Shown: positions 5,009 to 64,000, counted from the first letter of the stretch. The stretch: DNA of 64,000 bases from Amphiscolops sp. MND2022 (GCA_964187785.1 OZ076409.1:44456001-44520000); one strand, 5' to 3'. The notes: generated by a model from the sequence alone, not told the origin. A program made the numbers and translations.

Positions 5009-6696
5009 CGAGTTATTCTTTATTCTTCCTAAATTATTGAATAGTCATGATTACGTTTTTGATTCCATTGGAAGCGTCTGAAGGTAAGTCTCCAGGTTTT
5101 CGTTACTGAAACTCCATCCTAGAAAGTTAGTGTAGCAGTCCAGTTATCCGTACGCTGTCAAACACCTCCAGTACGATACAATAAAGAGAGCGTACGGAAA
5201 CTTCAACTTTCCTTCCGATTTCCAGCTCGAGCCAAGAATGGTATAGCGAACAAACTGTACTGTCCTTCTTTAAAAGTCTCTATGAAATCAACAATAATAT
5301 GGAATTAACAAGATCTACGTTAAAACTCTTTTGAACGCATTTCGAGAATAGAGATATGAAATTAACAAGATCAACGTTAAAACTCTATTGAACGCGGACC
5401 CCCTAGCCGAAAACTTGATATCCAAAATTAATGATGTTTGTGACACCCCGTCAAATATTGCCTTGTGGTACTTACTGCTCTATGCTAAGATAATTTTTGA
5501 AATACACCCTGAAAATTATAAGTACTCACACTCGACGTACAGTTAGACAAGTTTTCTTTTTTACTGTGATTCTGTAATCAAATCTTGTGAAGGGACCCAG
5601 CAAAGAGATCCTGATTCTCCAGCTTTATTTTCGGATTCAATTCAGGATCTGATTGACAGTTTGGAGCCGAAAATAAACTTATGGTACCTTGACGATGGAA
5701 ATTCAAGTGATGATTACAGAACCGTTTTGAAAGATCTCAAAAAAAAGTTGAACCGGAAAAAACAACGGGACTCAAATTTAAACCCAAAAAATGCGAATTT
5801 TTTCCTCGATGACATCACTGAAAAACGACGATCGACAATTTTAGCATCTTTCCAAAAATTTTGCCCCGAGATCGAAAAACCAAAGAAAGATGAACTTATC
5901 ATTCTTGGTTCACCGCTCAGCCCGAAATCATTAGCAGACTTATTGGAAAAGAACATTTTTGAAGTAGAAAAAAATATTGGAATTATTGAAAAACTAGATG
6001 CGCACCATGGTTCTTTTATGTTGAAAAATTGCTTCAGTCTGCCAAAGTTGTTGTACTTCCTGAGAACCAGTACATGTTTTAATCATCCAGTTTTCTCGGA
6101 AAAATATGACAAAACCGTACGCGAAGTGTTTTCCAAAGTGTGTAACGTGAACTTCGACAAAATTTCGAGTATTCAGCTGGCTCTGCCCGCTGAGATGGGT
6201 GGTCTTGGTGTTTCATCCGCATCTTCATTAGCACTTCCCGCCTTTCTGGCCTCAACTTTTGGTGCGAGTGATTTTCCCCCGACGATTTTCTCGGGAACCT
6301 TCGAAGATGTTTCGTTTACAAAAGCGCTTGAGAAATGGTTGAGTTTGACGAATGAACAGGAAAGTCTTCTCGATGGAACTCAGGAAAATTGGACACAACC
6401 TGTCTTCGTCAAAACCGCCCAAGATTTGATTTCTAGAATGGATGACAAACGTTCGAAAGTTTTTACCGGTCATCAAGGCATGTTCGAGTCTCAATAGCTG
6501 AACGTCGTTCCTTGCAAGAATCTAGGCCTGAAACTTGATTACTATCAGCCTCGGATTTCAATTGGTTTGCTTTTCGGAGCCAAAATCTGTGTTGCGCTTA
6601 CGTGCCACTGTGGTAAACGAGTTGAACGGGACGGTTTACACGGTCTTTCTTGCACCAAGAGTGCTAGTCGCTTCCACGTCGTGCTACTCTCAATTC

Positions 6697-7003
6697 GGTA
6701 TATGCCCAGTTTGCCGAAACCCAGTTTGCGGATACCCAATTCGCCGAATCCGAGGGACAGTTTGCCGAATTTTTTTTGGCAAACTGGGCAAGGTAGGGAC
6801 AGTTTGCCGAATTCGGCAAACTGTGTTTCGGCAAACAGTCCCATATTCAGGGGTATATGCCCAGTTTGCCGAAACCCAGTTTGCCAAAACCCAATTTGCC
6901 GAATCCGAGGGACAGTTTGCCAATTTTTTTTCGGCAAACTGGGCAAGGTAGAAACAATTTGCCGATTTCGGTAAACTGGGTTTCGGCAAACTGTCCCATA
7001 TTC
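6697..7003. mobile_element. Foldback MITE (tandem dimer of a ~150-bp palindromic unit)
   Basis: Exact TSD ctcaattc at 6689-6696 and 7004-7011. Arms are built from cagtttgccgaa / ttcggcaaactg repeats. The CRE-like sequence resumes after the insertion. Confidence 0.85.
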
Positions 7004-9643
7004 CTCAATTCTTTCATAAAGCAGACGTTGGGATCTCTCTACTTGCCTTCAGTGCTCAAACCGCACGTACTGTACCGAACTGATGGCAAACGTTCAGACG
7101 GTGTTACCATGACTCCTTGGGAAAAAGGTAAACAGCTGGTAAGGGATGTCACCGTTGTGGATGCTCTTGCACCCAGCCGTTTGAATCAAGGCTTTTTATG
7201 CAACCCAAGAACCACCGCCACCGAAGCTGAAGCGCGTAAACTGCAGAAGTAATGCGAATAAATAGACAAAGGATACATTTTTCAACTGCTGGCTTCGGAA
7301 GTACATGATTCTTTAGGCGAGAGCAGTGAAATTTCATCACGCGTCTCTGTAAAATGCTCTGTCGTTCGCACGAGGATCAACGAACTGGCAGCATTTTGAA
7401 GGGGGACAAGACGTTTCGGCGACACTATGGCGGCGGATGTTTCGGCGGTAAAGTGTCGCCGAAACGTCTCTTAAAAGGTGGTAGGAAACCTGTCGCCGCA
7501 ACGTCTTTTCATAGGATGGCCGGTCTCAAAATTGATGCAGTGATTATTAATTGAATTGAATATTAGAATGACACAAATGAAATGGAAAGCAATACAAATA
7601 CTATTGTTTACAGGTCACAGCAGCTGCTAGAAAAAGTACAATTTAGTTCACTGTCTGGCATGTACCTGTCAAGTCTGCTATCTATTTTGACCTCAATCGT
7701 TTTATCGGCTGTAGGTCAGACGGTCAGCTGGTCGGCTTTCAGCCATCTAGACCTCGGTAGTCGCATCCAGCTATCTTAGAAACATCCTCTAAACCGTCTT
7801 CCGGCTGGTCGTCTTTGTCAGTGCACATTTCTCTGGTAAGGAAGTAGAAGCGATCTTGCAGTTGTGCCTCCCTAGTTTCGTCAGCTTGTTTGAAATGTAC
7901 AGCTTGTGGCTCAACGTCGAATCATCTTGTTCTGCTTTGAATGCAACGCCCAGGAACCACGCAAGAGGGCCATTGTCACCGATTGTGAACTGTTTGCCCA
8001 CCTCTGCTCCAAACCATCGTCCAAAGTTCTCATCGGATGAACCGTAGACGATAACGTCAACCCACACCAGTGCTCAGCAATGATGGTCGCCCCTCTTTTG
8101 TGTCCAAAGACACTTGTCGTGCTGCAAAGAGTGAAACCCCAGCTGCTCCGGTCGATGCGATAGAGTACGTCTCGTGGTAGTCTAAGCCAGGTGTCTGTGT
8201 GAAGCCCCGCGCCACAAAATGTGCTTTGTACTTTGTCACTTTGCCGTTCTCGTTGACTTCACTGCAAAGTGCCACTTTCCAGTGATCGGCTGTCGCTCCG
8301 TTGGCCGTGAAACCAGAGACCACACCTCGTTCGTCATCAAATAATCGTACTCTCGCTGCATCGCTGCTTTACAGTTAGGGTCAGCGAGAGCCTCGACTGC
8401 GGATCCAGGGACCGTCGATGCCACCAATGCCTCGCTGTGTAGTGCCAGGTTCTCGAGCTCGTCCCCCATCACGATGTCATCGAGTCGTCGAGGCAGTCTG
8501 ATATTCCTCCGCTGTCGCCCTGGTTCGCTTCTCTGCAGCTGTGTGTTGTCGTCCTCGTCATCCAAGTGTCCATTGTTGGGAATTGTTTCGTCGGCTACTT
8601 CTACATCTTCAACATCTGGTGATTAACCCTTCACGTCGTGTAGACCATTGTCATAATGGATGGTCGTCTCCCCGCATCTATCGTGAGTCATGTCTGTGGC
8701 GACAGATGTAACGCCTCCTGGGAAGCAGTCCATATTAAACGTCACGTTCCTTGATGTTCACATCTTGCTCGGCTTTCGCTCAAGAGTTCCATCTTCTGTG
8801 CACACAATGAAACACTTGCTGCTGCTCGAGTAGCCCAGAAAGTTCCCGTCTGGGCCTTGCTGTCACGTTTCTTCCTGTTCTCGGTGAGCACAAACGCTCG
8901 ACATCCAGAAAGTTGCATCTCACTCAGGTTTGGCATCTCACCAAAGAACATTTCATACGGCGTACTGTTGCGCTTAGAGTGAAAACATCGGTTTTTGACA
9001 TAGAAAGATGTAGCCAAAGCATAAGGCCAAAGTTGCTTAGGCAGACCCGCTGTCTCGAGCATGCGCCTCGCCATTTCTGTGACAGTGCCCCACATGCGCT
9101 TAATTTTGCCATTTTCCTGTGGAGTGTAGGACAATGTTGCTGTGTCCCAGTGCCCTGTGCCACTGCACCATTGTTTTGCTTTGGGCTGCATGGCTGCCCA
9201 ACCAGGGTGAACAACCCTTGCCCCTCCACATCTATGTGCAATGCCTGGGAGACGTTCCAAAGGGAGCGCTCATGGTCTAAGGTTACACACAAAACGAAGA
9301 ACACGAAGAGTGTTTAGGTCATCACTGGTACAAACCAAAGGAAGGAGAGTCCCGTCTTGTGTCCTGATGTTGGCTTCCTTCCCGAAGCTTACCATTGCAC
9401 CCTGCTCGGCTAGCTTCTTCACTGAACTCAGGTTGCGAGTGTAGGTGGGTACCCAGAAGGCCTGCTTCAGCTCGAGCTCACACATCCTGCCCTTGCTGTC
9501 CAGCACCCCACATTGTGCTGTGCCTCTACCTTCCACTCGAGTTCGACTCCCGTTGGCATTACCCACATCAGTGTTGAATACATCTTCGATTTCCATGAAG
9601 AGAGCCCTGTCCTTCAGCATGAACCCGTTGCAACCCGAGTCCA

Positions 9644-10537
9644 CTAATAGCTCGAGTCCTTCTTCCTCTGAAGCCCATTCAAAGCTTCGGAAGCTGAAGA
9701 AGCATTGCTTCTCTGGACCCCTGCTGGTGCCACTGGACTGCCCCTTCTTGCTCTTGCAATCCCTTGCAAGATGCCCCTTCGCATTGCACTTGAAGCACGC
9801 CCTATTTCCTTTGACCTGCAGTCCCTCGCCATGTGTTCCTCCTTTTGGCACTTGAAGCACGTGATCTTCCTGCTGCTGTTTCCCCCCCTTGAGTGGAATG
9901 CATTTGAAGCCACGTCAGTGCCAGGCTGTGCTCTCGTGTAGGTAAAGTTGATGAGGTCCTGCTTACTCTTTTTGTAGCCATTTCGTGGTCCGAAGTTGAG
10001 AACCGTCGCGATGCTCTCGAAAGTTGGAGGAAGGCACTTCAACACTATCGCGCTGAACATCGCATTGGAAGTCATCTCGCCTGCTTCTTGAAGGTCCAGC
10101 CGTATTCCCTCAGCCCTGGTGAGGTAGTCAGTCACCTTCTCCCCTGGTGCCATCTTCAATCCAGCCAGCTGAGTAAGCAACGTCTGGATGCGGGGCCTCT
10201 CGGTGCTGCGGTACTTCCCCACAATGGCTTTCCAGGCTTCCACACCGTCTGGCTTGTGAAGGCGGATGAAGTTGATTGAAGCTTTGTCCAAGCACTGAGA
10301 AAGTTCGCACCAGACAATGAAGCGCTGCTTGTTCCGCTCGTCCTCTGCTTTGACCCTGGTAGTTTCGTCTCCCCTCGTCTCGTCTTCTCTGTAGGCAGGC
10401 ACAATCAGCTTGTCCTCGAGGAACTTCTCCACGTTGAGTATGTGCATCCTCGACTCGAACTGCTCAGTGAACACCGTAAAATGCTCGTCTTTGCCTGAGA
10501 AGGAGAGCTTCTCCATTTTCGAGTGGGTGGCTGTCAT
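9644..10537 (-). CDS. Copia gag (frameshifted near the zinc knuckles)
   Basis: 297-aa ORF with UBN2/copia-gag-like helices and CFKCQKEEHMARDC. The second knuckle and the protease are in ORF 9270-9860. Confidence 0.8.
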   Translation of the reverse strand: MTATHSKMEKLSFSGKDEHFTVFTEQFESRMHILNVEKFLEDKLIVPAYREDETRGDETTRVKAEDERNKQRFIVWCELSQCLDKASINFIRLHKPDGVEAWKAIVGKYRSTERPRIQTLLTQLAGLKMAPGEKVTDYLTRAEGIRLDLQEAGEMTSNAMFSAIVLKCLPPTFESIATVLNFGPRNGYKKSKQDLINFTYTRAQPGTDVASNAFHSRGGNSSRKITCFKCQKEEHMARDCRSKEIGRASSAMRRGILQGIARARRGSPVAPAGVQRSNASSASEALNGLQRKKDSSY

Positions 10538-10620
10538 CTCGGCTGCTGACTGCTTGGCTCCATGTCAACTGGCTAGGCTGTGATCGTCGAGGTGGAGTTG
10601 GTCGTCGTTGTATGTCATTT

Positions 10621-11950: not shown

Positions 11951-12299
11951 TGGTGGGCGGTAATAGGTCGAAGGAACGGGATCGAAAATCAGAGTTAGTC
12001 CTCAGGTCGATATACCAAATTTTTGAATGGGATCGAAACAACTCGGTTCGAAGTTTTTATAACGTAGTCAGATATGTTCACATACCCCTAGTGCCCTGAA
12101 TGCAGGAGCGAAGCGAAGCGGAGCGACGTGCCATATGGCCATGCCTCAATATTGCTACTTGGCGAAGGGAGCGAAGCGACCGAGCCATGCAACAAATACG
12201 ATAAAATTCGACCGCATTCCACTCGATCCCTGCAATTCGATCAAAAGGTTCGACCTCTGTCCTTCCGACCAGAATAATTCGACCTATTTACAGCCTCCC
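11951..12299. mobile_element. Foldback MITE (ggtcgaa/ttcgacc arms)
   Basis: Exact 9-bp TSD cgttcgaag at 11942-11950 and 12300-12308; imperfect TIRs. The core at 12072-12190 is shared with 13695-13770 and 63115-63240. Confidence 0.85.
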
Positions 12300-30115: not shown

Positions 30116-30960
30116 TTTTTTAGGAGTCGGAAAAAATTTTCGACTACTTATGCAATCGTGCTGTTTTTTTTTCTCCCGACCTTTTCATGAAAATTTCAAA
30201 TTTCTCAAAAACTGTCCATACGATTTTCACGAAATTTTGCACAGTCATTCTACACCCAAAGGGGCCCCTGCGTGTGCAGAGGCATCAAAATCGTATGGCC
30301 TGGATGTGAGAAACATAGCCAAAATTAGCCCAAAAGTGGCCAAAAAACAGCCATTTTTCGACTTTTTTTGATTTTCTCAAAAACTGTCCATACGATTCAA
30401 ACGAAATTTTCTACAGTTATTCTACACCATATTAGAGTCCTATATGTGCAATGGCATCAAAATCGTATGGCTGGGATGTGAGAAACATAGCCAAAAATGG
30501 CCAAAAACAGCCATTTTTCGACTTTTTTCGATTTTCTCAAAAACTGTCCATACGATTCGAATGAAATTTTCTACAGTTATTCTACACCATATTAGAGTCC
30601 TATATGTGCAGTGGCATCGAAATCGTATGGCTGGGATGTGAGAAACATAGCCAAAATTAGCCCAAAAATGGCCAAAAAACAGTCATTTTTCGATTTTTTT
30701 CGATTTTCTCAAAAACTGTCCATACGATTCGAACGAAATTTTCTACAGTCATTCTACACCATATTATGGTCCTTTATGTGCAATTTCATTAAATTCGTAT
30801 GGCTGAGATGTGAGAAACATAGCCAAATTTAGCCCCAAAATGGCCAAAAAACAGTCATTTTTCGATTTTTTCACAAACTGTTCATACGATTCGAACGAAA
30901 GCGAGTCAGAAGGAAAAAGACTTAAGCCGACTCCTTTACCGCATATGCGGCTCTGGTTTT
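30116..30960 (+). mobile_element. HINE/DINE-like element, family 2, with an internal ~160-175-bp tandem array
   Basis: 5' tttttaggagtcgg..cgactact; 3' ccgactcct plus hairpin ccgcatatgcgg; about 4 tandem units. Inverted full copy at 41679-42456; fragments at ~34043 and 35205-35850. Confidence 0.8.
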
Positions 30961-41678: not shown

Positions 41679-42456
41679 AAACCAGAGCCGCATATGCGGT
41701 AAAGGAGTCGGCTTAGGTCTTTTTCCTTCTGACTCGCTCCAATCCCAGTAATACAAATTTATTGAAATTGCACACATAGACCATACTATGGTGTAGAAAA
41801 TGACTGTAGAAATTTTCGTTCGAATCGTAGGACAGTTTTTGCAAAAATACAAAAAAGACGAAAAATGGCTGTTTTTTGGCCATTTTTGGGTTAATTTTGG
41901 CTATGTTTCTCACATCCCAGCAATACGAATTTGATTAAATTACACACAAAGGACCATTGTATAGTGTAGAAGGACTGTACAAAATTTCGTTCGAATCGTA
42001 TGGATATTTTTTGCGAAAATCAAAAAAAGTCGAAAACGGCTGTTTTTTGGCCATTTTTGGGTTAATTTTGGCTATGTTTCTCACATCCCAGCCATACGAA
42101 TTTAATGAAATTGCAGAGAAAGGACCATAATATGGTGTAGAATGACTGTAAAAAATTTCGTTCGAATCGTACGGACAGTTTTTGAGAAAATCGAAAAAAA
42201 AATTGAAAAATGACTGTTTTTTGGCCATTTTTGGGCTAATTTTGGCTATGTTTCTCATATCCCAGCCATACGATTTTGATGCCTTTGCACACGCAGGGGC
42301 CCCTTTGGGTGTAGAATGACTGTGCAAAATTTCGTGAAAATCGAATGGACAGTTTTTGAGAAATTTGAAATTTTCATGAAAAGGTTGGGAGAAGAAAAAC
42401 AAAAAAAAACAACACGATTGCATAAGTAGTCGAAAATTTTTTCCGACTCCTAAAAA
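41679..42456 (-). mobile_element. HINE/DINE-like element, family 2, with tandem array
   Basis: Reverse-complement copy of 30116-30960 with both termini. Confidence 0.8.
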
Positions 42457-48410: not shown

Positions 48411-50771
48411 TGTTACGACTATTTACCGGTGTTGTTTTAGAGCTAGTCGCAGTGTGAACTTTGACGGGTGTGGACGTCCTCGTTATGGAGACGTTCTCTG
48501 GTTCAGAATCAGAGTCTCGAACATCTGAGCGGACAGTTTGTTTTTTGTTCAAAGGTGCTATTAGTTTAAGCATTTCCTTTTGGTTTTTTGCAAGTATTTT
48601 AGTTAAATCAGACATGATGTCTTACCTTAGAGATGTTTTTATCTCAACTAGACTCTCAGGCTCTACTCTAGGGACTTTGCTAGAACTAGCTACGAGGTTT
48701 TCCGACGGAGAGTTCTCGGCTAAAGAAACTTCTAAATCTCCAGAAACTAATTCAGCTACAGCGTTCCTCTTCTGACTTCTAGTTGTCATTTTGGATTGAA
48801 AATTCAAGGTCTTCGGCAAAATTGAATTCTTCGAATATTCGAAGAAATATTGATTTTCTGTTTTGAAAAGAACAGTTTGAACAGCAAAATATCACAAAGA
48901 CTAACTGACTTTACATGTAAATTCTACATATTTATACCCTTTCAGCATCATTTGTTTCTCACCTAAAATTTCCTAGGTATCGCAAAAATCGGGTTTGTTC
49001 AGCAAGAAAAGCTTATAATTCAAGTTATTTCAGCCCGGCATCAAAAAAATCAGGTATCATAATTCCTAGTTGCGCCGCTATTCCGTAATATTTGTTGAAA
49101 TCATTTTTGTTCAGGCAATTCCATTTCCTGTTTGAGTCTTGAAAATGCGGCAAAATAAAAGTCTAGCTGAAATTTTCATCGACGAATGCACGCTGGCGTG
49201 AACAATTAGTCACTTCCCAAACTAGGAAATTAATGTTCGAAGCAAAAGTATGACACTCAAAAATATTAAGGGAACTGAAACGGAATAAAGAAATTCGGAA
49301 ATGGCAAATATTTAAATGCTAGAAAAGAACAAACGATGCCAATACGGTATCAACACATGAGTGTTTGTTATGATAGCAACAGTGGTATATTGTGGCAACA
49401 GTGGTACAAGTTAACAAAGGAACGTAAACAGTTATAACGGAAACATTCCGCTGGTATAATATATCATTTGTCACTGACAAACTCATGGATAGCACAAAAT
49501 ATCAGCCAATAGCTAACTAGAAAATAGTAGAAAATGGTGCAAGCACCAAACAACGACTGTTTAGAAATAGTAGAAATGGTGGAAAAGCGTCAACAGTAAA
49601 TCATGATTACGGTAGTTACACAAATTTGGAAGATCACGATAGTATATTTTAGATATGAGTTGCCCTTACGTTGCATATTCGTTCTCAAAAATGAACGTTG
49701 TGTAGTAAGGAAAACCCTTCAACTAGAAAAACTTTGCTAAATAATTTGATTACAACGTAAGTTAACCGTGTTCTTCCCTTGACCTGTTTTCATGTTAATA
49801 CTTCAATTTGCCTTACAGTACAGTTCATTTTGTATGAAAATTTATCCTAAAACATTATCTAAATGCGTCGAATCGAAAAAGGATGATCAATGTTAAATGT
49901 TCATTCAATTTAGTGCTTTATAGTCATGATTTCTCATATTGCTCCGTAAGTGCTACGTACGTATTAAGATCAGCTATAGCTGAACAGCGGAATACAATTT
50001 TACAATCCGCTCCGTAGATGTTCCGTACGTATTAAGATTAGGTATAGCTAGGCAGCGGCGATAGCAGGCGGAGCGAGAACGGAGAGCGTAGGTGAATTCA
50101 TTCTTCTTTTCTCAGTCAATTGGCGTTGCTAGGGGCAACCAAGCATGGCTTTACCGACTTGAGCTCAAATAATTTAGCTGAGGAGCAACGCTATTGGTCC
50201 GTAAAAACAGAAATACTGGTTGCTAGTTTTGTCGAGTGACGCTGTCATAACGTTGTAAACCTTTGCTTAAAACTACTTGACTGTGGTATTAAGTGGATAT
50301 TTGACAACTATTTTAATACTGGAATCCAATTCCACTATACTTTTGTATGTTCTTTCATTTAGATTGTATGAACTCCGTTAGGCTCTCGGGGTTAAATATT
50401 TTTCTCAATGTTTTCATTTTAGTGTGGAGCAGAAAGAAATGATCTCATTTTAGAAAATGATTTTGTTTTAGTATTTAGATTTGTATGGAAACTTCAGAAG
50501 TCTTAACCGGAAATGAAAAGTGGCGTTGTACGTGAAAACTTTTGACCGGAAACTTTAGTTAGTTTAGAATCATTTCTGAAAATATTCCGTAACGCTTACG
50601 TTGGATTCTGTGTACGGAAAATTATCTGCGATTATTTAGCTGTGCTGTAAGTAAAATTTGATTAGTTTAGCAAAGGTTAAAAGTGTTTACTGTGTCCTTG
50701 TCCGCATCCTCTGCCGAATCCCGGTATGCCAGAGCAGCAAGTGAAATTACGACCGAGAGCGGGTCGTGACA
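48411..50771 (-). repeat. 3' LTR (2361 bp)
   Basis: 48411-49545 matches 62325-64000 apart from a MITE (9 mismatches in the first 190 bp). Inverted TG...CA termini; a PPT directly precedes 50771. The upper boundary is inferred from the terminus and PPT only. Confidence 0.8.
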
Positions 50772-51416
50772 GGGCCCCTCTCCTGGCTAAATAAGTTGGT
50801 AGTCCGTGACCGTGCGGGATTTCTTTTGTCACTATCACTGAGGGTCGGCTGACATAGTTCCTTATCTGGTGGGGGCTACGTCCTCTCCCCGCCGTCATGT
50901 ATGCAATTTTATTTTCGTCCTCTTCTAGCTCCCGAATCATTTTTTCGAAATGTTCCTGAGCTGCGGGGGAACACAATTCTTCGTGGTACTCTTGCGGAGT
51001 CTTTTTCCTTGGCTCATTTAAGTCGTTAAGAGGGCTGCGTTTCTTATTCCCCGACGTGCAAGCGTTAAGTTTTGTGAATTTATCAGAGCCGTTGGCATTG
51101 CGGGTGACTCAAGTTCCTCGTAGTAGTCGTCGGAATCAGATTCCACGTTGCTTCTTGGTTCGCGGATGATGAGAGGCAGATTAAAGGTCACTTTCGTGTT
51201 CTTTTTCTTCTTGGGGGTCAACTTTGCTCTTTTCGGGGAGCATACGAATTCGTCTGTAGACTCTAGCTCTGCGTCGCTGCCTCGGTAGACTTCTGTGGAT
51301 GAGTCGCTGATATTCAGCGTTCTAATTAGGTTCAACGGCAGCGTTTTTATGGGAGTGCTAGTCCTTGTGTTCTCTTCGTCAGAGGAGATGTCGATTACTA
51401 GAGCGTATCCGTCCAT
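50677..51416 (-). pseudogene. Gypsy accessory sense ORF (~245 aa after one frameshift) overlapping the PPT and U3
   Basis: ORFs 51416-51018 and 50976-50677; 'LVIDISSDEE' and 'PKRAKLTPKKKK'; low-complexity acidic/basic composition. Confidence 0.55.
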
Positions 51417-52901
51417 CTTTCGTTTAATGACTGCGAGTTTTGTTGAAAGATAAAATAAGATTTTGATTTTCTTGTTGTAAGCTGGTCAAGCTGAGGTTTT
51501 GAACGACAAATAACCGTTCCACTTTCTCTCCTGTTTATGTTTTCTTCGAATTCTATTGGTCTGTTTTCCCGCTTTCGTTCCGGTCCGTCCTGAGCTTTTA
51601 ATGCGACGAACTTACGACTCTTCTGTGATTGGTCAATTAATTGATCTAAGGAAAAAATTCTGTTCTAGTTTTGTTTCCCTTCAGCTTCATCGTAATGATG
51701 TCATTAGTTTCTTTCGAAAGGAATACAGCTACTAAGCGTAATATCCGAAATGGCTTTTAGAAGATTTCTTCAAAGCTTCTTGGTGAACTAGTAATTCACC
51801 TGTAGGGTTTTTGGAAACGTTTTGTTCCGTCAGTGCCATAATGGTCTCTTATTGGAGTTGAAGAAATGGATAATTTGTTTTTCCTAAGTAAGATGAAAAC
51901 GATGCTAAAGCTTTGCATTGTTCTTTTTCCGGGATAGTCTCGTTGGTATACTTTTCTTCGTCTTCTTTACTGTCCTTTTCCTTTTTAGATTTCACTGAAG
52001 ATATTTGCTACTGATCTTGATGGATGATGAAGAGGTTGTTCCGCCTACTGTCACAGCTACTGGTTTCGTCGGTGGGAACGAAACTAATTTCTGCTTCTCC
52101 GATGATGACATGGTTTATACGGAGGAAGAAAATATTGAAGATGCTTCAGGTTGGTAAAATCTTTCTGACTTTTATAGGCAATAGGACTATTGTTATTTTG
52201 GTGATCAGCCTTTTATAGTCTTGACCGTAACTCTGACGCGTCTGAATCCAGATCTTGATTTTCAGTACCTCAACCTGGCACTTCCACTGCTGTTACTTCC
52301 GTAGCTGCAACGGTAACTAATACTTCTGGAACTGTAACGGGAACTAGTACTTCTGGGGCTGTTGTGTTGTCTTCAGTTCCACTATTCTTGCCTCTAATTC
52401 TTCTTGTTTCGTTAACGCTGCGTTGATTTCTGTGTTGTCTGTGCCTGAAGTTCCACTGGCTGCAATCCCTCTTCAGACCGAGACAGAATCGACAACTTTC
52501 GATACTGCTGAAGATGCTGATAGTGAGTCTCAAGAAGGTGAGACTGATCCCCCGGCAACAAAAAATCCGGTTGGTATTCTGTCAATTGCCCCATTGTTGT
52601 TCATGGTAGAGTAAAAAAGGGCGTGCATGGATATGTTTTTTGTAGTTCTAGATCTAAGGGGTAGTGTGACCCGGAAGGTTGCCGTTAATTTTGCAACGCC
52701 GACAAAACGTGCACGGAAAACTGTTCCGGCACCTCCACCTCCTCTTCCCCCTTTGACACATTGTCTGAGTGGTTGGCAAAGTTAATTGAATTGCACTTTA
52801 TTTCTGTTGTCTTTCCGTGGATCTGCGGGGTAGGGTGATGATTATACCACGAGTGTTTTTTTTGCTCTTTGGTTAATTTTATTGTTCTTGTGTAGGTCAG
52901 G

Positions 52902-55900
52902 ATGATGAACAGCTCTACACTACCGGGGAGGTGACGTGGAGTCCCCAAATTGTGATGCAGTGGGACCGACAGCTTGCGGAGGAGATGAAAGAGAGGACCT
53001 CACTGGCAATTCAGAGCTGTTAGTATCAGTTGTTGATGTCTTACCGCAGGGTTTGCTTTCCTTGATTTACGTCGTTGGGCGTACCGTGCTCCTTCCGCAA
53101 TTTAACTGTATTTCCTTTCCCTAACACTGTGTATGTGTGTTGTAGAATTTCAAGAACTCAACGAGAAGGTGGAGCAGCGTCTGGCTAAGCGCCCAGTGAA
53201 AAAGTATAGCAGTCGCAATGAGCTACATCGTAGTATGTTGGACCGCCATCCTGCTTTCGCCGACTTTGTGACTGGGGCCAAGGACGGGAAAGGAACGCAT
53301 TTCCACTGTCGTGTCTGTGATCATGATGTGGTCATGAAAGCACATGGTTCCGGCGAGTTTAGTCGACATTTCCGGTCTGACGCACATTGGTTTAAGGACG
53401 TCACCTGCCGCGTTCATATGGGCCTGCAAGTTCTGAACAGATTGATGGAACCTATGGAGTTATCAGACAGTCAACTTGCTAATTGTAGGTCACGGCCTTT
53501 TGTGGACTTGAGCGGGGAGTACCTGTTTCCAGAAGATCTTTTGCCGAAGCATTCTAGGGCGGGGACAAAGGTGCACTTTATGACGTTGGTGTCCTGTTTT
53601 TCTTCGGAACGGTGGTGACTTCGATTCCCTGCGCCGTCTGTGGGGACATTTATCTGCGACTTTGTGTGGCCAGGAGCCTGGATTTCCTCTACGATGGAGT
53701 TGTTCAGAGACTGTTGTAAGTCGGGTATTTTCTGCTTATTCTTCGTTTTTTTGTCTTTGAGGGGGTGGGAGAAAAAGAAAAATAATAATTGAATAGATGG
53801 TGGGCGCTGTGGTTGTCTGTTTCTTTTGATGTTCTTCTGTGTTTGTGTTTTTTAGTCCTTCCTATGCCAGGGGTTAGCGCCGCGTGTCCTTCGGCTCATG
53901 GTCAATGATGTCAATTCCCTCAAGGAGTACGGGATACAATCCGAGAAAGTGGGCAATGAGGAACGATGTTATGTTCATTGTTGGGAAGGGACGAGTCTCA
54001 AGAAGATCTGTGTCAGCAGTCAGACTTTGGATCAGAAAGTGCCAGATGCCGAACTTGTTCCGTTAGTCCAAGTGGTAACCTGTTTCGAGGGAGAGCAGTT
54101 GCCTGTGTGAGTTCTTGGCGCGAGTCCGTCCCTTATTCGTGTGCTGGATGATAATCGAGCTGATGGTCGTAGATTTATGATGTGGCAGTTGTTTAGCGAG
54201 GAGGTGTTCCTTCAGTGTTTTCGGCAGTCTCATCAGGACGTATTTGGAATGTTGAAGGTGACGACGGCCCTCGAATACGTAATTCATTGTCTGAAAGGGT
54301 CTCTTTACGAGGACTGGGCCGAAGATAAGCATCTTTTGCGTACATGTATCCGGAAGGGTTCTGTTGTATTCAGTGAACTTCGGAATGTCCTGAGCGATGT
54401 AATTGAACTTTGGCCATCGATTCGTCCATACGTCCGTTATACGGGCCATCCGCATTTTAAGAGCACTGTTGATTGGGTAAGCACCTTCTTTTTACGTATT
54501 GTTTTCGCTTGGGGTTGGGTTTCGGGTTTCTTCTGGGTACGGTAGTTATTCCTCATTATTGTATCGTGTGATTGTTGTATGGTAGTTGTATTGTTTAGCT
54601 GAGAGGCACCGACTTTGAACTAATTCCCGATAATTTGATCGTTTTATCGGTTTGGTTTCCTGCGGCTGCCTCTTGACACTCGTAAGTATAATCCTTTCTG
54701 TTATGTGTCCGTGATTTTGACTGACGACTGTGTTTGATTGATTGGAAATTCTATCAGTTGGGAATTTGTCCTCTTTTGGTTTGCTTGGTTTTGTTTATAT
54801 TCTTCTTTCCTTTTCTTTGGCTGTATTTTCATGTTTCGTTTTAGACTACATCAACTTCGAAAATGTTCGACAATGCCGTACGGATTACGCTTTCCATGGC
54901 TATGGTGAGGTGTGTAACTTCATCTATTGTTTTTTGATGAGGACCCGCAAGTTATCCGATTTACCGGGCATCCATGAATGGGAGAGTTATATGGATGTTT
55001 CAAAACTTTCTTCTTTTGGTGTCATTGCTGTGGAGGACTTTCTAATGGACTGCGATTTCGGACGTGAGTTGTCTGCCATTAAGACGAGTGAAATGCGGGA
55101 GTTTCGCGTTAAATGTCGGGAGTGCCTCGATCGATTTGTGTTCTTGGTTCTCGAAAATATGACTGTAACTTCTGGCATTTCGCGAGGGCTGTACAGTTTT
55201 TGTCCTGACATCATGCTGGAGGGCGATGATCAGCATGTGTTTGAAGTATTTGATTCACTTTGTGAGCTGTTTGGAACATGCAACGTATTGTCCTCAGATG
55301 ATTTGAAGGCCGCCGCTGTCGAGTACAAAAGGTATGTCGTGGAGAAACGGAGGCATCACAAAGATTCTACTTATGCTGCGAATGAGATCCGTGATGTGGT
55401 GCAGTTTCTATTGCGGGATTTTAGCTTCCAGTCCCGTACGCATGTGTTCCGATTGTTCAAGATTTGTTGCCTCATTGTTGGAACACGGGATAGCAATCCT
55501 CCTGTAGTGACTATTGATCTAAGAGGCAGTGCACTTGACCAGGCAATGGTTCAGGATTGTATTCTAATTGTGCAATCTCACGTCCTTGGCCCGAGTTTTA
55601 GTCCTCAAATATTCTTTTCTGGATCTTTGCTCCTTGCTGTTCAAAATGCTATTACAAATTCAGGAGGGTTCGTTGTTGGTGCTGGAGTTGATATATGGGA
55701 AGGCCTCCGGCTCAGTGATGTATCTGCTTTCGTTGGCCGTTATAAATCCTTGTAAAGGAGTTATTTGGCAGAGCGGCGCAAGAGTTGTCAGACCTATTTT
55801 ATAGAGTGCAAACCGGAGTGCTCGCGACAGTCAAATTTCCAGTGCGGCTGAGACAGGGAGTAGTACAAGTTCCGTAGTCAGTTCGAAGAAGTCGAAAGTG

Positions 55901-56113
55901 TCTAATCCCAAATCAATATCGACGAGGGATGTGTACGTTGCTGTTTCGTCCAGTAAGAGTATGGGCATGTCGTGTGGATCATCTAAGAAGGACGGCGTAG
56001 GAAGTACGAAATCCGCTGTAGGAGTTGATTGTTTGTCAGATGGAGGAACACAAGACCCTTCTAAAAAGAAAAAAAAACCCGCCCAGGGAGAAGGATCCCA
56101 GTGTCGCCCATAG
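52902..56113 (+). pseudogene. Antisense spliced cargo gene: BED-like C2H2 finger plus hAT-transposase-like body lacking catalytic motifs
   Basis: GT-AG exons ~52896-53050, 53146-53715, 53856-54476, 54599-54681, 54845-56113. Motifs 'FHCRVCDHDV...GEFSRHFRSDAH', 'GLAPRVLRLMVNDVNSLKEYGIQSE', 'LWPSIRPY', 'FRLFKICCLI'. Several stops and frameshifts. Confidence 0.7.
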
Positions 56114-56311
56114 ATTGAAGAAAGGTGCCAATAATTAGACTGTGGCTTCTGACTCTTTGATGTTATATTAATTTTATACTTATGGTTTGATGATTTGTTG
56201 TATTTTCTTTTTCTTGGGATATCGTCAGTATGTGTAGTGTTTTGTAGTTTAGAATGTTCCAAAATTTGACGTAGCCACTCCGGTTCGGTTTGGTATACTA
56301 ATCATTTTTAT

Positions 56312-59300
56312 CTAGGCCTGAGTTGAACGTAGATCGTCCGTAGTAACTGAGTCGAGCATTCTGAAGTCAGGATTTACGTTAGGTCGTGGATTAGGTCGTA
56401 AGTTATATCTTCCCACTTTTCTAGGATTATATCCAACAACAATAGGCGGCAGTTCAGGAGTTTTGGGGGGGCTTTGTATCGGCGGTGGGGTCAGAATATA
56501 TGGCTTATCGCTGACATCTAGGTTGAATGACGTAACGTTGTCGGAGGATGTTTTATCCCCTTCAGTAATTTCATTTGTGGCTGTTTGAACCACGTCATTT
56601 TCCGTTGTAGTTTCGCTTGTGGCTGTTTTAACCACGTCATTTTCCGCAGTAAATTCGTCGTTTTCTGTTGTGTCTGTGATTTCTGTAACTGTAGCTTCTT
56701 CGAGGACGTTTTCCGTGGTATTTCCGAACAGAACTTCTCCGAATTTGATTTCCCAAGCTTGCGCCTACCAATCATTGTGGGTTGTTTTAACCTCTGGATC
56801 TTCCCTTCTGACTGTTACGTCAGGTACTCGCTGATTGGGCGCATATAGCCTTAGGCGAATTCTAAGGAGGGTTTGAGTATACCGAGTTCCTGGGCGACGT
56901 ACGACGTAGTTGTTGTTCGAGAGTACTTTGACAACTATGTAGGGACCAGTCCAAATGCTATCTTTGAGAGCGAATTTCATCGATTGGTTGTCTGCCTTCG
57001 GATTAAGAACGTAGCAGTAGTCGTTGACTTTGAGCGGCGTAGCCGTTGCTTTCTTGTCATAGTACTGTTTGTATTTGAGGTAAGACTGCATTAGATTCTC
57101 ATTGGCGGCTTGGTGTATTTCGGCTGTTTGTTTCTGTAGTTGATCCGTTTTTTCTTCGTTGTTATCTTTTTCCCAGTCAGGTTTCAATCCGAGTTTTATG
57201 TCCAGAATGTTGTACGGAATGCGTCCGTGAAATACTGTTGTAGGTTCGCAGCCTAGGTTTTCATGGTAGCTCGTATTATAGGTCATGACTGCAATCTGGA
57301 GGTATTTGTGCCACATGGAACGTCGTTCTCCCGTAGATATTTTTGTGAAGTCTTCATTGAGGCATGTGTTCGTTCTAGTATATCGATCGTTTGGGCATGT
57401 TTCGTTGATGCGTGGCTTATCCCTATGTCAAGCGTTTGAGCTATTTGGTTGACGACCTCCGATCTGAACTGTGATCCTTTATCCGTTAGTATGACGGTTG
57501 GTAGGTAGCAATGCCTTGTCATGACATCAATTATACTTCGTGCCACTGTTTTTGCTGTCATTTCCTGAGTCGGGTATGCGAAAAGGTAGCGAGGGAAGAC
57601 GTCCATCATCGTTATGATGTGTTGGTATCCCTTTGAGGAAGGTAGATTCGGTAAGATGTCCACTTCTAGGCAGTCTTCTGGTCCCATTGTGAATTCAGTG
57701 TTGCTTAGCATTTTGGGACGTATCTGTCTCGTGTCAATTCTTTTGTTGGCAATGCAATCTGGACAACTGGTTACCCAAGCTCTGATTTTGCGTGCAAGAC
57801 CCGGGAAGTAGTATTTCGTTCTGCATTCCTGAATCATTTTGGTAATTCCTGGGTGTTTGATTGTTTTTCCATGCATGGTGGACAAGAGTTCTGGGACTAG
57901 GTGTTTTGGGATTATCATTTGGTTGTGTGTAACTGATCCGTCTTCTCCGTAGTATTTCCGCATTAAAACTCCATCTTTCATTATGATTCTTTCTTGGTGA
58001 CGTAATAGGTTTCGTCCTCTTGGTTCAGTTTTGAGAAGATGTTTGTCATATTCTTCGTGTGAGATCCGTTGTTTCAGTGCTTTATGGAGAGGATATGCAT
58101 CTTGCTCATTTCTGATTCGTGCATTTTCCTTGATTGCGCCGAACGAGTAGACTGCGGAGCTGTGAGGTATCTTGATGACTTCAGTTACTTTCGTTGATAG
58201 GTCCTTTTCGTGTTCGTCGGTAGCACGTTGCTTGCTGAGTGCTTTCCTTGCGAATATTTCTTGTTCGGATTCTTCTTCTTCATCTGGTAGGAAGAAAAGT
58301 TGTTCGTCATCCGCTACATCTGATGACTGTAGATTGACCTCAATTGGTGACGTTAATATGTCGTCTCGTAGTTTAAGTTGTACCATCTCTTTTCTTGGTG
58401 TGAGTTCAAGTCTTGAGAGAAAGTCGGCTGCTGTGTTCTGGGAGCCCGCAACGTGCATGATCCGGAATTCGAACTGAAGTACGTAGTCGCAGGCATTCCA
58501 CAGTGCGGGTGGTGTTGTTTTCGTCTGAATGAATCTGGTTACTGAGCGGTTGTTTGTCAAGATCAGTGTCGGAATTGTTGTCTCCCATAGTATGTGGCTG
58601 TACTCAAGAAAGGCGTGGTAGATTGCCTGGAATTTCTTGCAGTAGATAGACATTTTCAGTTGTGCAGGTGAGAAAACTCGTGATCCGGACGCTACTGGTG
58701 CGAAATGTTTCCGTTTGGAGAGTAGTTTGCGTTCATCAATCTCTTCAATCATGAGGGCGTAACCAGATGCACGGAAGCTTGCATCCGTCATTAGAACGTA
58801 CTGTTTTCCTGATAAGGGCTGTCTGAGTGCATGCAAGTCCACAGGCTTCCGCTAAGCTAGCGTTGATTTCTTTAAAGTTATCAACGAGTTTCTCTGAGAT
58901 TCTGATTTTGGAGTCTGCTTTTAGAAGTTCATACATACCAATGAGTTTTTCTGACAATCGCGGTATGTAATTGCGATAGTAGTTGACAAAACCAATATAT
59001 TTTTGAACCTGCCTTTAGGACTTCGAGAAGCGGACTTTGGAGAGGAATATTTTGACCTTTTGATCTTGCGGAGCTACTCCGTCAGGGGTGATGTTTCGTC
59101 CAAGAAATTCGATTTGGGTTACTCCAAAATGACATTTTTTGATGGATAGTTTTAATCCTGCCTCTATAATACACTTGAAGACTGCCCTGATATTCTTTAT
59201 GAGCTGTTCCGTTGTACTTGCGGCAATTCCAATGTCACCTACATATTGTGCACATTGGTCCGTTTTGATGACTGAATCCAGATACTTACGCACAAAGCGC

Positions 59301-60600
59301 GAAAAGGCTGATATAGCTCTGCTTAGTCCTTGTGCCAGGCGACGGTAGTCGAACGTCCTACTTGCAAAATTGAAAGCAAGTAATTCTACTGACCTTTGGT
59401 CTGCCATTTGGAGGCAGTGGTATGCCAGGGAGCGGTCGAGCTTGCAGAACAGTTTCTTCCCCGCAAGGTGTTGTGCCGCGTCTGAGAGGGTGCTGACAGG
59501 GTGGTTGTTGTTGATGTAGTCATCGGCAATGAGTGCGTTGATTTTGCGCTGATCCACCAATAGTCTCAGCTTGCCGTTGGGTTTACGTTGTGCAAATATG
59601 GGACTGGCATATTTGAAGAAGGGAAGTGTCGTGATGATTCCGTATCTGTGCATGAGGGCTAGTTCCACTGTCAGATCTTCTTTGAGGTTGATGGGGACGG
59701 GTAGGTTTTGTGTGTAGACTGGTTTGTCGTCCTATGGGGTTGGGCTGACTTGGGTGTTCTGGAGTTGGGAACCAGATTTTCTCTTCTTTATCTTCGGGCC
59801 GTGCTACTTACATTAATGCATTAATATACATGACCACATCGTCGTGTTCGGTAAGGAGGTTCAGGGCGGCTATGTCGACTGGACGGATCATTTTCGTTTC
59901 CTCGGGTTTCAGAATTTGTAGCTCGGCTATTTTCGTGTCAGTTGCTATTGTGTATGGGAAATCCGTGGTGTTGGCGATTTTAATTGGTACCTTTTTATCT
60001 CTGGCTGTGGTGATTGCTGGGGCTACTATTATTTTCGCGCATTCATCAAATTCAAATTGCGGTAAGGGTTGTATTGTACCAGTCATTGGATGTTCGGTAC
60101 TTACGGGGATAGATGCGTAGATGATTCGGTTAGAGTGCGCAAGAATTGTGTGCTGGGCTTCGGTCTTTTTTGTGATTGGGTTTGGGATTGCACTTTTGCC
60201 TTTCATCGATGAGTGTCATCGTGATTTGGATCTTGGGGAAGTCAATGGTTCCTTGTGCAGTGTCGAGGATTGCGGCATGCTTCCGTAGAAATGCTAATCC
60301 GAATATAGGGAATGATGTTTGATTCATGATTATGAATGTTTCTTCGAAGGTGTAGTCCCCGATTTTAAAACGTAAGGTGTACGTGGCGAGTGGTTGTTCT
60401 AATTCAGCGTTAGCGTACTGTACTTTGAAAGGGGGTGAAGGTGCTTTAATAACAATACATTGACTAGCGTTCTGTCGGAGTTTTTCGACGTCCCTTTCGC
60501 TAATAGCGTTAACGTAGGCACCTGAGTCGACTAAGGCGTCGATTTTGACAGTGTTGATTTCGACTGGTAGAAAAAGCTATCATTTTTTCTTCTTGAGGGC
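56312..60600 (-). pseudogene. Gypsy pol (protease, dUTPase-like region, RT, RNase H, integrase), frameshifted
   Basis: Protease LVDSGA (~60530); RT 'YASPIFAQRKPNGKLRLLVD..YVGDI' (59015-59668); RNase H 'MTDAS' (58842-57283 ORF); integrase H-H-C-C, 'VDI', 'TDKG', 'LER'; GPY motif 'WTGPY'. Confidence 0.92.
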
Positions 60601-61259
60601 AATGGCGGACATTTACGGAATGTAGTCGTCATTTTTGTCATGCTGGATGAATTCTTTGATGGCGTCTAAATCTTCAGGCAGTTTTGAAGGGCATTCCGTG
60701 ATTTGTCCGTCGTCGTTTGCCATTGCTCTGGCGGGCACGGTTTTTGGGGGTGTTACTGTAGGATCAGTGTTCTCTCGTTGTTCTCTTTCTTGATGTGCCC
60801 ATATTGTTTTATCCTCAATGCAGATGATGTTCTCTGCATCTATCGGTGTGGACGTAATGGTGACGGGCGCTGTGGGAGATGGTGTTGTCCTTTTCAGGAT
60901 CGGTGACGGTGGAAATGGTTAGTTTGTAATCTCAGTGGACTGGGCTTGAGGTTTTGAAACTTGGATTTTGAAAGATAGTTTATTTGTGTCATAGATGGTT
61001 GGTTCATCCCAGGGGTCACATCTATAGTCTCTGTCATATATGTAACTTCGTTCCGTTTTTGATTCTGGCAGTGGTCTTTTGAGTGTCGCATAGTTATCGG
61101 GTGACTCCGTTATCCATTGGGGTAGTGGTGTTGGATCTTCGGGGTGTTTGGCGTTATGTCTAAGTATCATGCCTACGTTCCAGCGCTGTTGCAAGTCCTG
61201 TGTTGATTCTTCATTGCATTCTGTCATAAGCTATTCTTCGTATCTATTTGGGGGGTCTT

Positions 61260-62703
61260 CTATTGTGTACGCCCTCGCGTCAACTTTTTCCCCAAATCGT
61301 AGGCGCGGCGACTTTTGTTTTTTGGCTGAGAGGACGTAGTGGGTACGGGTTGTTTGTTGATCTTGTTGGTTGGGATGGTGAATTCTCGTTTCTTTTTGCG
61401 GGGGTCGTTTGCCGCATTGGCTCCGTCCCAGCAATTTTCTGTTTTATGCTTTTTTTCCGCAAGTGTCACATTTGGGTTTTGGTGCCTCAGTCTGTTTGGG
61501 TTCAGTGTTGCTTGTTTTTGTTGCATAGTACCTGTCTTTGCGGAGGCGACGACATTGTGCCTTGTAGTGGCTATATTTGCCACAGTGAAAACAGTTGCCT
61601 CGTTGTGATTGTTCTTTCTTGTCTTCCATCACTACGGCGTCCACTTAAGAGGGACTAGGGTTGTTTCGTCGGGCGCACCTAGTCCGTTTAGTCGCATCTC
61701 GCGTTCAAGATGCAGCACTATATCGTTGTATGGCTTATCTTCTAGGTAGGCTCTATTGAGGGTCTTTTTGACGTGGTCCGGCATTTTAGCGTAAATGGCC
61801 TTGTCAATGAATTTTTGTGCCTCTGAGCCAAACACTTCTTTTGCGGTTTTTTGCAGAATGTCAAGAAATTCATGAAGTTTCTGCTTAGTTTCTGCTTAGT
61901 TTCTTGCTTTGGCTGCAGATTGGAAGTCGCCAAAACGACGTTTGAAAGCCGTTATGACTTCTTCTAAATCATCTTCTTTGGTATCTTCAAGATTGCAGTA
62001 CGCTTGTAGCGTGTTTCCTCGTAGCAGTGAGTGGAATCAATTTTTTTTCTGGACTTCCGTGAGATTGGGGTATATTTTAATATTGTTTCGGAATAGGTCC
62101 TCAAAAAGTTCAAAACTTTTCGGACTTACCATCGAAGACTGGAAGCGAAGCGGTGAGTGCTTTCGGCATCGGAAGTTGATTGGTAGATGGGAATGTCTGC
62201 GGTTGTGGCGCGAACAGTATCTTCGATGTAGAAGGACGGTCTCTAGTTGGTTCGCTAGGCGCTCGTTGTTGTTTTGGCCTCTTTGTGGGTTGATTGGTGG
62301 AGTCATTGAGGACTCCTGTCACCATGTTACGACAGTTTACCGGTGTTGTTTTCGAGCTAGTCGCAGTGTGAACTTTGACGGGTGTGGACGTCCTCGTTAT
62401 GGAGATGTTCTCTGGTTCAGAATCAGAGTCTTGAACATCTGAGCGGACAGTTTGTTTTTTATTCAAAGATGCTATTAGTTTAAGCATTTCTTTTTGGTTT
62501 TCTGCAAGTATTTTAGTTAAATCAGACATGATTTCTTTCCTTAGAAATGTTTTTATCTCAACTAGACTCTCAGGCTCTACTCTAGGGACTTTGCTAGAAC
62601 TAGCTACGAGGTTTTCCGACGGAGAGTTCTCGGCTAAAGAAACTTCTAAATCTTCAGGAACTAATTCAGCTACAGCTTTCCTCTTCTGACTTCTAGTTGT
62701 CAT
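61260..62703 (-). pseudogene. Gypsy gag with CCHC knuckles, starting inside the 5' LTR
   Basis: MTTRSQKRKA at 62703; 'LPVFDGKSEKFELFEDLF'; CFHCGKYSHYKAQC and CDTCGK.H...C; frameshifts. Confidence 0.85.
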
Positions 62704-64000
62704 TTTGGATTGAAAACTCAAGGTCTTCGGCAAAATCGAATTCTTTGAAGAAATATTGATTTTCTGTTTTGAAAAGAACAGTTTGAACTGCAAAATATCA
62801 CAAAGACTAACTGATTTTACATGTAAATTCTACATATTTATACCCTTTCAGCATCATTTGTTCGGATCACGTAAATAACTTCTAAATAAATAAGTTCTAA
62901 AATTATATTAGTAAATAACTTCTAAATAAATAAGTTCTAAAATTATATTAGTAAATAACTTCTAAAATGCATTTGCGTCTGGTAACTTCTGAAATCATTC
63001 TAGTAAAGATTGCTATTCATTCTTCCGAAAAAAAATTAACCGTTCCATTATTCCGAAAATAAACTTACCGTTCTATTATTCCGAAAACTGTTATTTGAAA
63101 AGATAAGCATATTTGTTGTATGGCTCGGTCGCTTCGCTCCCTTCGCCAAGTAGCAACATTGAGGCATGGCCATATGGCACGTCGCTCCGCTTCGCTTCGC
63201 TCCTGCATTTAGGGCACTAGGGGTATGTGAACATAGCTAACGACGTTATAGAAATAATTACGTCAAAATAGCTGTTTGGAAGTTATTTACTAGATGCCAT
63301 TGCAATTTAGAAGTTATTTACTAAAATAATTTTAGAACTTATTTATTTAGAAGTTGTTTACTATATTAATTAGAAGTTATTTATTTAGAAGTTATTTACT
63401 TCCCCCATTTGTTCCTCACCTAAAAATTCCTAGGTATCACAAAAATCGGGTTTGTTCAGCAAGAAAAGCTTATAATTCAAATTATTTCAGCCCGGCATCA
63501 TAAAATCAGGTATCATAAATCCTAGTTGCGCCGCTATTCCGTAATATTTGTTGAAATCATTTTTGTTCAGGCAATTCCATTTCCTGTTTGAGTCTTAAAA
63601 TTGCGGCAAAATAAAAGTCTAGCTGAAATTTTCAATGACGAATGCACGCTGGCGTGAACAATTAGTTACTTCCCAAACTAGAAAATTAATGTTCGAAGCA
63701 AAAGTATGACACTCAAAAATATTAACGGAACTGAAACGAAATAAAGAAATTCGGAAATGGCAAATATTTAAATGCTAGAAAAGAACAAACGATGCCAATG
63801 CGGTATCAACACATGAGTGTTTGTTATGATAGCAACTGTGGTATATTGTGGCAACAGTGGTACAAATTAACAAAGGAACGTAAACAGTTATAACGGAAAC
63901 ATTCCGCTGGTATAATATAACATTTGTCACTGACAAATTCATGGATAGCACAAAATATCAGCCAATAGCTAACTAGAAAATAGAAGAAAATGGTGCAAGC
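62325..64000 (-). repeat. 5' LTR (partial)
   Basis: Direct repeat of 48411-49545; adjacent to the PBS. Confidence 0.88.
62864..63405. mobile_element. Foldback MITE (taacttctaaa arms) inserted in the 5' LTR
   Basis: 9-bp TSD catttgttc (62855-62863 / 63406-63414); empty site in the other LTR at ~48949-48957; GG...CC ends. Confidence 0.93.

What the first reader, a model, noticed from the sequence alone, without database searches (positions are those of the whole stretch)
52896..56113. Intron-containing antisense gene inside the LTR element that looks like a catalytically dead hAT transposase
Seen: four GT-AG introns on the strand opposite to gag-pol; an N-terminal Cx2C...Hx5H finger; motif spacing that follows hAT transposases (LAP...YGIQSE where FS...DE is expected, W..I..Y, F.N..Q). 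The C-terminal ER.FS motif is absent and the protein ends in a Ser/Lys-rich tail with KKKKK. Established: antisense introns survive reverse transcription because they are not spliced from the genomic RNA. Inference: a retrotransposon has captured a DNA-transposon protein and retained it as a nuclear DNA-binding accessory factor (transcription, anti-silencing or integration targeting).
Basis: partly seen in the sequence, partly recalled or inferred. Interest (0 to 1): 0.88.

Follow-up and report, generated by a model that had tools for sequence, protein, structure and literature searches.

The report
Retrotransposon carries intron-rich antisense transposase-like gene
A large, recently active group of retrovirus-like jumping genes carries an extra eight-exon gene on its opposite strand that is kept intact by selection and looks like a DNA-transposon enzyme that has lost its cutting residues, which suggests one kind of mobile element has taken over a protein of another kind as a helper.

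Summary
The gene has 8 coding exons and 7 GT-AG introns (1,078 aa in an unbroken copy). The window copy is broken.

The gene is part of a 15-kb Ty3/Gypsy element. It lay antisense beside pol in 35 of 35 testable loci, shows dN/dS near 0.1, and follows the integrase tree at deep splits. Lineages with about 20% identity share intron positions. The genome gives over 6,000 first-look candidates, and homologues occur in other assemblies. No flanking inverted repeats were found.

A hAT origin is plausible but not proven. Exon 6 folds as an RNase H-like core, and Hermes ranks 2, 5 and 9 in Foldseek (E 0.015-0.04, not significant). A whole-length profile alignment is borderline (P 0.015-0.11). The confidently modelled last exon matches no solved structure. 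On the inferred register, two of three catalytic acids are gone.

No RNA could be tested. Best reading: a dead DDE-transposase derivative acting as a nuclear accessory factor.

The parts
48411..50771 (-). 3' LTR of a Ty3/Gypsy element (about 2.36 kb, TG...CA ends)
50772..50784 (-). Polypurine tract next to the 3' LTR
   Evidence: sequence; same position in other copies
50677..51416 (-). Second extra ORF, sense to gag-pol, about 225-285 aa in other copies, broken here
52020..52149 (+). Coding exon 1 of the antisense gene (a conserved acceptor before 51989 implies a 5' UTR intron)
52266..52537 (+). Exon 2 (low complexity)
   Evidence: AG 19 of 19, GT 16 of 19
52652..52780 (+). Exon 3 (basic KRARK patch, proline run)
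   Evidence: AG 17 of 19, GT 17 of 19
52896..53018 (+). Exon 4 (ends at 53018, not 53050)
53146..53715 (+). Exon 5: C-x2-C...H-x5-H zinc finger and helical region
53856..54476 (+). Exon 6: predicted RNase H-like core followed by helices
54599..54681 (+). Exon 7
   Evidence: AG 18 of 19, GT 19 of 19; contiguous with exon 8 in two lineages that lack the last intron
54845..56138 (+). Exon 8: all-helical domain and S/K-rich tail
56312..62705 (-). gag-PR-RT-RNase H-integrase, broken in this copy; the gag ATG (approximate position, by homology) lies inside the 5' LTR
   Evidence: Pfam hits
62313..62324 (-). Primer-binding site directly after the 5' LTR
62325..64000 (-). 5' LTR, interrupted by an insertion at 62863-63405, running about 1.2 kb past the window end; 95-96% identical to the 3' LTR

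Best explanation
An ancestor of this Ty3/Gypsy lineage took up a DDE DNA-transposase gene, most likely of the hAT superfamily, in antisense between pol and the 3' LTR. The genomic RNA is the other strand, so the introns are not spliced from it and are copied at each reverse transcription (established logic). The gene is read from its own antisense, spliced mRNA (inferred). The protein lost catalysis but kept a zinc finger, an RNase H-like scaffold, a large helical domain and basic patches. It most likely works in the nucleus, in trans, as a chromatin or DNA-binding helper that keeps elements transcribed against host silencing. SHOWN: integral, multi-copy, purifying selection, deep co-divergence with integrase, conserved intron positions. 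MODELLED: RNase H-like core. INFERRED: transposase origin (about 0.75), hAT specifically (about 0.6), loss of catalysis, anti-silencing or transcription role (about 0.45).
Confidence: 0.5

Rival explanations
1. Same integral antisense gene, but derived from another DDE superfamily with a helical insertion (Mutator/IS256, P element, Kolobok or similar) rather than hAT.
Against: Foldseek ranks Hermes above ISCth4. The ordered blocks in exon 8 fall on hAT motifs. The finger lies N-terminal to the core, as in hATs (recalled). No profile of these other families was tested.
Confidence: 0.15
2. The dead transposase is an integration or particle factor: it binds the LTR ends or the pre-integration complex and steers nuclear entry or target choice.
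For: Transposases bind ends and oligomerise (established). Basic patches at both ends. Kept under selection in every lineage sampled.
Against: Two subfamilies with LTRs 95-97% identical and RT dS 0.21 carry genes only 68% identical (dS about 2), so the gene does not track LTR sequence. It changes far faster than RT.
Confidence: 0.17
3. The gene is not transposase-derived: it is a captured host gene or a new fold whose RNase H-like part is generic, acting as a regulator.
Against: All 35 testable homologues in this genome lie in elements. The order finger, RNase H-like core, long helical part and the borderline collinear alignment fit a transposase.
Confidence: 0.13
4. An ordinary nested hAT transposon or a decayed passenger.
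For: The window copy itself is broken.
Against: Same place and orientation in 35 of 35 loci across lineages with about 20% gene identity. No flanking inverted repeats in 3 of 3 regions scanned. dN/dS near 0.1. Triad incomplete.
Confidence: 0.03

Closest known systems
Plant Ty3/Gypsy antisense accessory ORFs (Grande gene23, RIRE2, Retand TRP28; PMC7264820, PMC11963269)
   Same: Antisense, between pol and the 3' LTR, family-wide. GENE23 is nuclear and has its own promoter.
   Different: Those are described as ORFs. 'Intron' has 0 occurrences in PMC11963269, and PMC7264820 calls for looking for spliced antisense transcripts and says the origin is unknown. Here there are 7 coding introns, 1,078 aa and no TRP28 or PMD hit.
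HTLV-1 HBZ and HTLV-2/3/4 APH (PMC10186651)
   Same: Spliced antisense transcript of a retroelement that encodes a nuclear regulator.
   Different: HBZ is a 31-kDa bZIP protein of a retrovirus, expressed from the 3' LTR. Here the protein is large, multi-exon and has an RNase H-like fold.
hAT transposases (Hermes; ZMYM1/THAP12-type) and domesticated ZBED/ZNF862 proteins
   Same: N-terminal C2H2-type finger, RNase H-like core, long helical region, similar motif order.
   Different: No significant match. DDE incomplete, CxxH, RW and ERxFS absent. No TIRs. It sits in a retrotransposon rather than in the host genome.
Plant mobile domain shared by Gypsy and MULE elements (PMC5418596); extra ORF3s of bdelloid LTR elements (PMC5408684)
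   Same: Accessory domains shared between element classes or captured by LTR elements; an anti-silencing role has been proposed for PMD.
   Different: PMD, DEDDy and GDSL are not described there as transposase cores, and no intron-bearing antisense gene appears in the passages seen.

Membership tests
Ty3/Gypsy LTR retrotransposon (host element) | Direct LTRs with TG...CA ends, PBS and PPT | tested here: met
Ty3/Gypsy LTR retrotransposon (host element) | Domain order PR-RT-RNase H-integrase | tested here: met
   Pfam PF13975, PF00078, PF17917, PF17921, PF00665 in that order
Ty3/Gypsy LTR retrotransposon (host element) | Short target-site duplication | tested here: met
   5 bp exact in 10 of 15 and 6 of 8 copies; not readable for the window copy
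hAT transposon (autonomous or nested) | Terminal inverted repeats with 8-bp duplication around the gene | tested here: not met
   no flanking inverted pair in 3 of 3 regions at seed 9, length 12
hAT transposon (autonomous or nested) | DDE triad, CxxH, RW and ERxFS motifs | tested here: not met
   On an inferred register: first position acidic in 11 of 14, second in 2 of 14, third in 8% of 105; the other motifs are absent
hAT transposase-derived protein | N-terminal BED/TTF-type zinc finger | tested here: inconclusive
   C-x2-C...H-x5-H conserved; no BED hit, only weak generic C2H2 hits at E 0.003-0.01
hAT transposase-derived protein | RNase H-like core | tested here: inconclusive
hAT transposase-derived protein | Helical insertion domain and C-terminal region like Hermes | tested here: inconclusive
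   Hermes not listed for the exon 8 model; exon folded alone, no positive control run
hAT transposase-derived protein | Significant profile similarity (PF05699, PF14291, family alignments) | tested here: inconclusive
   no Pfam hit; borderline whole-length alignment, P 0.015-0.11; ZNF862-type hATs were not available as a comparator
Plant antisense aORFs (Retand/Grande type) | Antisense, between pol and 3' LTR, family-wide | tested here: met
Plant antisense aORFs (Retand/Grande type) | TRP28 or PMD domain | tested here: not met
   no such Pfam hit
Expressed spliced antisense gene | Spliced antisense RNA | not testable with these tools
   no run was listed

The most novel reading that the evidence does not exclude
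An old, still expanding lineage of LTR retrotransposons has domesticated a DNA transposase. It carries the gene as an intron-rich antisense gene with the catalytic site dismantled, and exchanges it as a fast-evolving module in an arms race with host silencing. This would be a class II enzyme turned into an accessory factor of a class I element, present in thousands of copies and in more than one species.
Probability: 0.45. Interest if true: 0.9.

Novelty: new variant of a known kind. Interest (0 to 1): 0.77.

Why it matters
The origin and role of antisense accessory genes in LTR retrotransposons is an open question (PMC7264820). This family gives an unusually testable case, with thousands of copies, young insertions, measurable selection, and intron gain and loss inside a retroelement. 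It also shows that a seven-intron gene can ride through reverse transcription over long evolutionary time. If the transposase origin holds, it is domestication of one transposon class by another. The family has no Pfam model (1,183 clusters at 50% identity; 10 of 10 looked up carry no name), so such genes may be missed or taken for host genes in annotation.

Tried and rejected
This is no evidence either way.

Word-indexed searches among longer proteins with the last exon of two lineages found nothing. Pfam found nothing useful. PDB sequence searches with three profiles found nothing under E 0.3.

ESM Atlas: exon 8 gave RabGAP-TBC at 0.90 with low recognition, rejected as weak and unsupported by the fold searches. 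The lineage-2 exon 6 gave only leads at 0.85 or below, including RNase H at 0.83.

A search for C17orf113-type fingers in the genome, meant to get a ZNF862-like comparator, found none, and its control did not ring. Multi-copy short hAT exons checked as possible less-decayed LTR-borne hATs were not in LTR elements (4 of 4). One of those stretches led by chance to the second lineage. The metagenome scan with exon 5 found nothing, nor did a phage search with RT.

Earlier findings: none held for this genome.

Full report
THE ELEMENT. The region lies in a Ty3/Gypsy LTR retrotransposon on the minus strand. The 3' LTR is 48411-50771. The 5' LTR starts at 62325, is interrupted at 62863-63405, and runs about 1.2 kb past the window. 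The two LTRs are 95-96% identical. A PBS follows the 5' LTR directly and a PPT precedes the 3' LTR. Pfam gives protease, RT, RNase H and integrase in Gypsy order. The window copy has stops and frameshifts in gag-pol and in the antisense gene. The host was not identified; the genome is 1.07 Gb.

GENE STRUCTURE. I aligned the window with 18 other copies. The gene has eight coding exons: 52020-52149, 52266-52537, 52652-52780, 52896-53018, 53146-53715, 53856-54476, 54599-54681 and 54845 to about 56138. GT or AG is kept in 16-19 of 19 rows at each of the 14 sites; rows with deletions or a different 5' part may inflate a few counts. In one unbroken copy the exons add to 3,237 nt with matching phases and no stop inside any exon, giving 1,078 aa. 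Exons are more conserved than introns, for example 86% against 78% and 76% against 64% relative to one young copy, and indels concentrate in introns.

INDEPENDENT SUPPORT FOR THE INTRONS. A second lineage, 17-25% identical in protein, has introns at the same exon 5/6 and 7/8 positions. GT follows the last codon of exon 5 in 3 of 4 loci, and there is one extra intron in exon 6. Two other lineages lack the last intron and read straight through in the predicted register (L160, L161). A metagenome contig with no DNA similarity to any locus held here shows the same exon 7 donor and one further intron. No RNA test was possible.

INTEGRAL AND SELECTED. The gene lay antisense between pol and the 3' LTR side in 19 of 19 copies of the first set, 8 of 8 from four further subfamilies (one lacks RT and integrase), 4 of 4 testable loci of lineage 2 (a fifth was too short) and 4 of 4 further loci. 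That is 35 of 35 testable loci, all chosen through the gene. In the other direction, 53 of the 150 best RT hits had a listed gene hit within 8 kb, all 53 antisense and downstream. This is a lower bound, since I entered only 105 of 250 positions from capped lists. Exact 5-bp target duplications were seen in 10 of 15 two-LTR copies and 6 of 8 copies; LTR identities reach 99.95%. First-look candidates number 6,204-7,277, against 26,388 for RT; these are not copy numbers. dN/dS between subfamilies is 0.06-0.20 in 13 of 15 pairs (2 saturated) and 0.10 in the only unsaturated pair; RT gives 0.013-0.074. No inverted repeats flank the gene in 3 of 3 regions.

HISTORY. Over 14 elements, the deepest split is fully supported in both the last-exon and the integrase tree. 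The group of seven close subfamilies is recovered in both (95/96 and 82/84), and pairwise identities correlate at rho 0.84. At shallow depth the gene moves between backbones. One subfamily groups differently in the two trees with strong support. Two subfamilies with 95-97% identical LTRs and RT dS 0.21 carry genes only 68% identical. A profile of the last exon finds 1,183 clusters at E 0.001 or better. Ten of 10 looked up are unnamed ENA predictions, and one has no match above 29% among the 100 candidates scored in this genome. The family therefore probably extends to other organisms; whether those homologues sit in LTR elements was not testable.

SEQUENCE TESTS. HMMs do not separate 126 hAT proteins from reversed or shuffled ones. 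hhalign gives E 0.11 in the expected register against 0.16 for the reversed profile, and nothing for the whole length. My own profile alignment over exons 5-8 scored 81.9 against 64.6 +/- 5.0 for 25 block shuffles. Without constraint it placed strand 1 and four C-terminal hAT landmarks in order, but not the middle motifs. Over six settings P was 0.015-0.11, and no single exon was significant. The Ac-type comparator (11 rows) gave no signal. By eye, the spacing also fits the second D, CxxH and RW positions of the comparator pattern; this is inference. On that register the first acid is kept as E in 11 of 14 rows, the second is acidic in 2 of 14, the third in 8% of 105, and CxxH, RW and ERxFS are absent. 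I put transposase origin at about 0.75 and hAT at about 0.6. It is not a member of the hAT transposons, as TIRs and the triad are missing.

MECHANISM. Antisense introns escape splicing of the genomic RNA and so survive reverse transcription (established logic). The gene needs its own antisense transcript; the conserved acceptor before 51989 implies a start further towards the 3' LTR. A finger, basic patches and a dead transposase scaffold point to a nuclear nucleic-acid or chromatin binder (inference). Faster change than RT and swapping under near-identical LTRs favour a trans-acting, host-facing role such as anti-silencing over a role matched to LTR ends. This is the least certain step.

COMPARISON WITH PRINT. 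Antisense ORFs between pol and the 3' LTR are known in plant Gypsy elements. Their origin is called unknown, and spliced antisense transcripts are named as something to look for (PMC7264820; main text read, parts 1-2 of 3). Retand elements carry TRP28, with no mention of introns (PMC11963269; passages). HTLV HBZ and APH are spliced antisense nuclear regulators (PMC10186651; passages). PMD is shared by Gypsy and MULE elements (PMC5418596; passages), and bdelloid LTR elements capture DEDDy and GDSL ORFs (PMC5408684; passages). Passages of PMC6431247 and PMC9911081 hold nothing on such a gene. Seven searches (listings only, apart from the papers named) showed no report of a multi-intron antisense transposase-like gene in an LTR element. 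The library lacks most subscription papers and Repbase, and no supplements were read; repeat libraries in supplements could hold this family.

VERDICT. The finding is real, widespread and selected, and the architecture is unusual. It is a new variant of antisense accessory genes in LTR retrotransposons. The hAT origin is likely but unproven, and the function is inferred. Interest 0.77.

Noticed in passing
window 51416-50677 (-); L046, L102, L104, L110, L112, L114: A second extra ORF, sense to gag-pol and ending at the PPT (225-285 aa, low complexity). LVIDISSDE is present near its start in 6 of 6 subfamilies, which resembles a SUMO-interacting motif (recalled). No Pfam hit.
   Followed up: partly
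window about 62705 (-); L047:6169: The gag ATG lies about 380 nt inside the 5' LTR, and the frame reads through the LTR end and the PBS. Many copies have a single open gag-pol frame of about 1,775 aa.
   Followed up: partly
window 62863-63405: Insertion in the 5' LTR with 85-nt inverted arms (62901-62985 and 63287-63371) and a 145-nt piece also found inverted at 12054-12198.
   Followed up: no
L031:2233-2482 (just past the window end): The 5' LTR is bordered by about 250 bp of PPT and sense-ORF sequence, which looks like a tandem or recombined junction, so no target duplication is readable.
   Followed up: partly
window 59751: About 245 bp are missing in pol relative to most other copies.
   Followed up: no
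L108/L110, L161, L046 against L112: The antisense gene is exchanged between RT, integrase and LTR backbones as a module.
   Followed up: partly
L160, L161, L154-L156, L162: Intron gain and loss inside the retroelement gene: last intron absent in two lineages, extra introns in two others.
   Followed up: partly
window 30165-30900 and 41800-42400: Arrays of 160-174-nt repeats in inverted orientation about 11 kb apart, with related dispersed repeats.
   Followed up: no
window 5547-10564: A more GC-rich stretch with several overlapping frames of 150-316 aa, not examined.
   Followed up: no
L136-L143: The genome also holds ordinary hAT transposases with long open frames (419-697 aa), of Ac type and ZMYM/THAP12 type.
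   Followed up: partly
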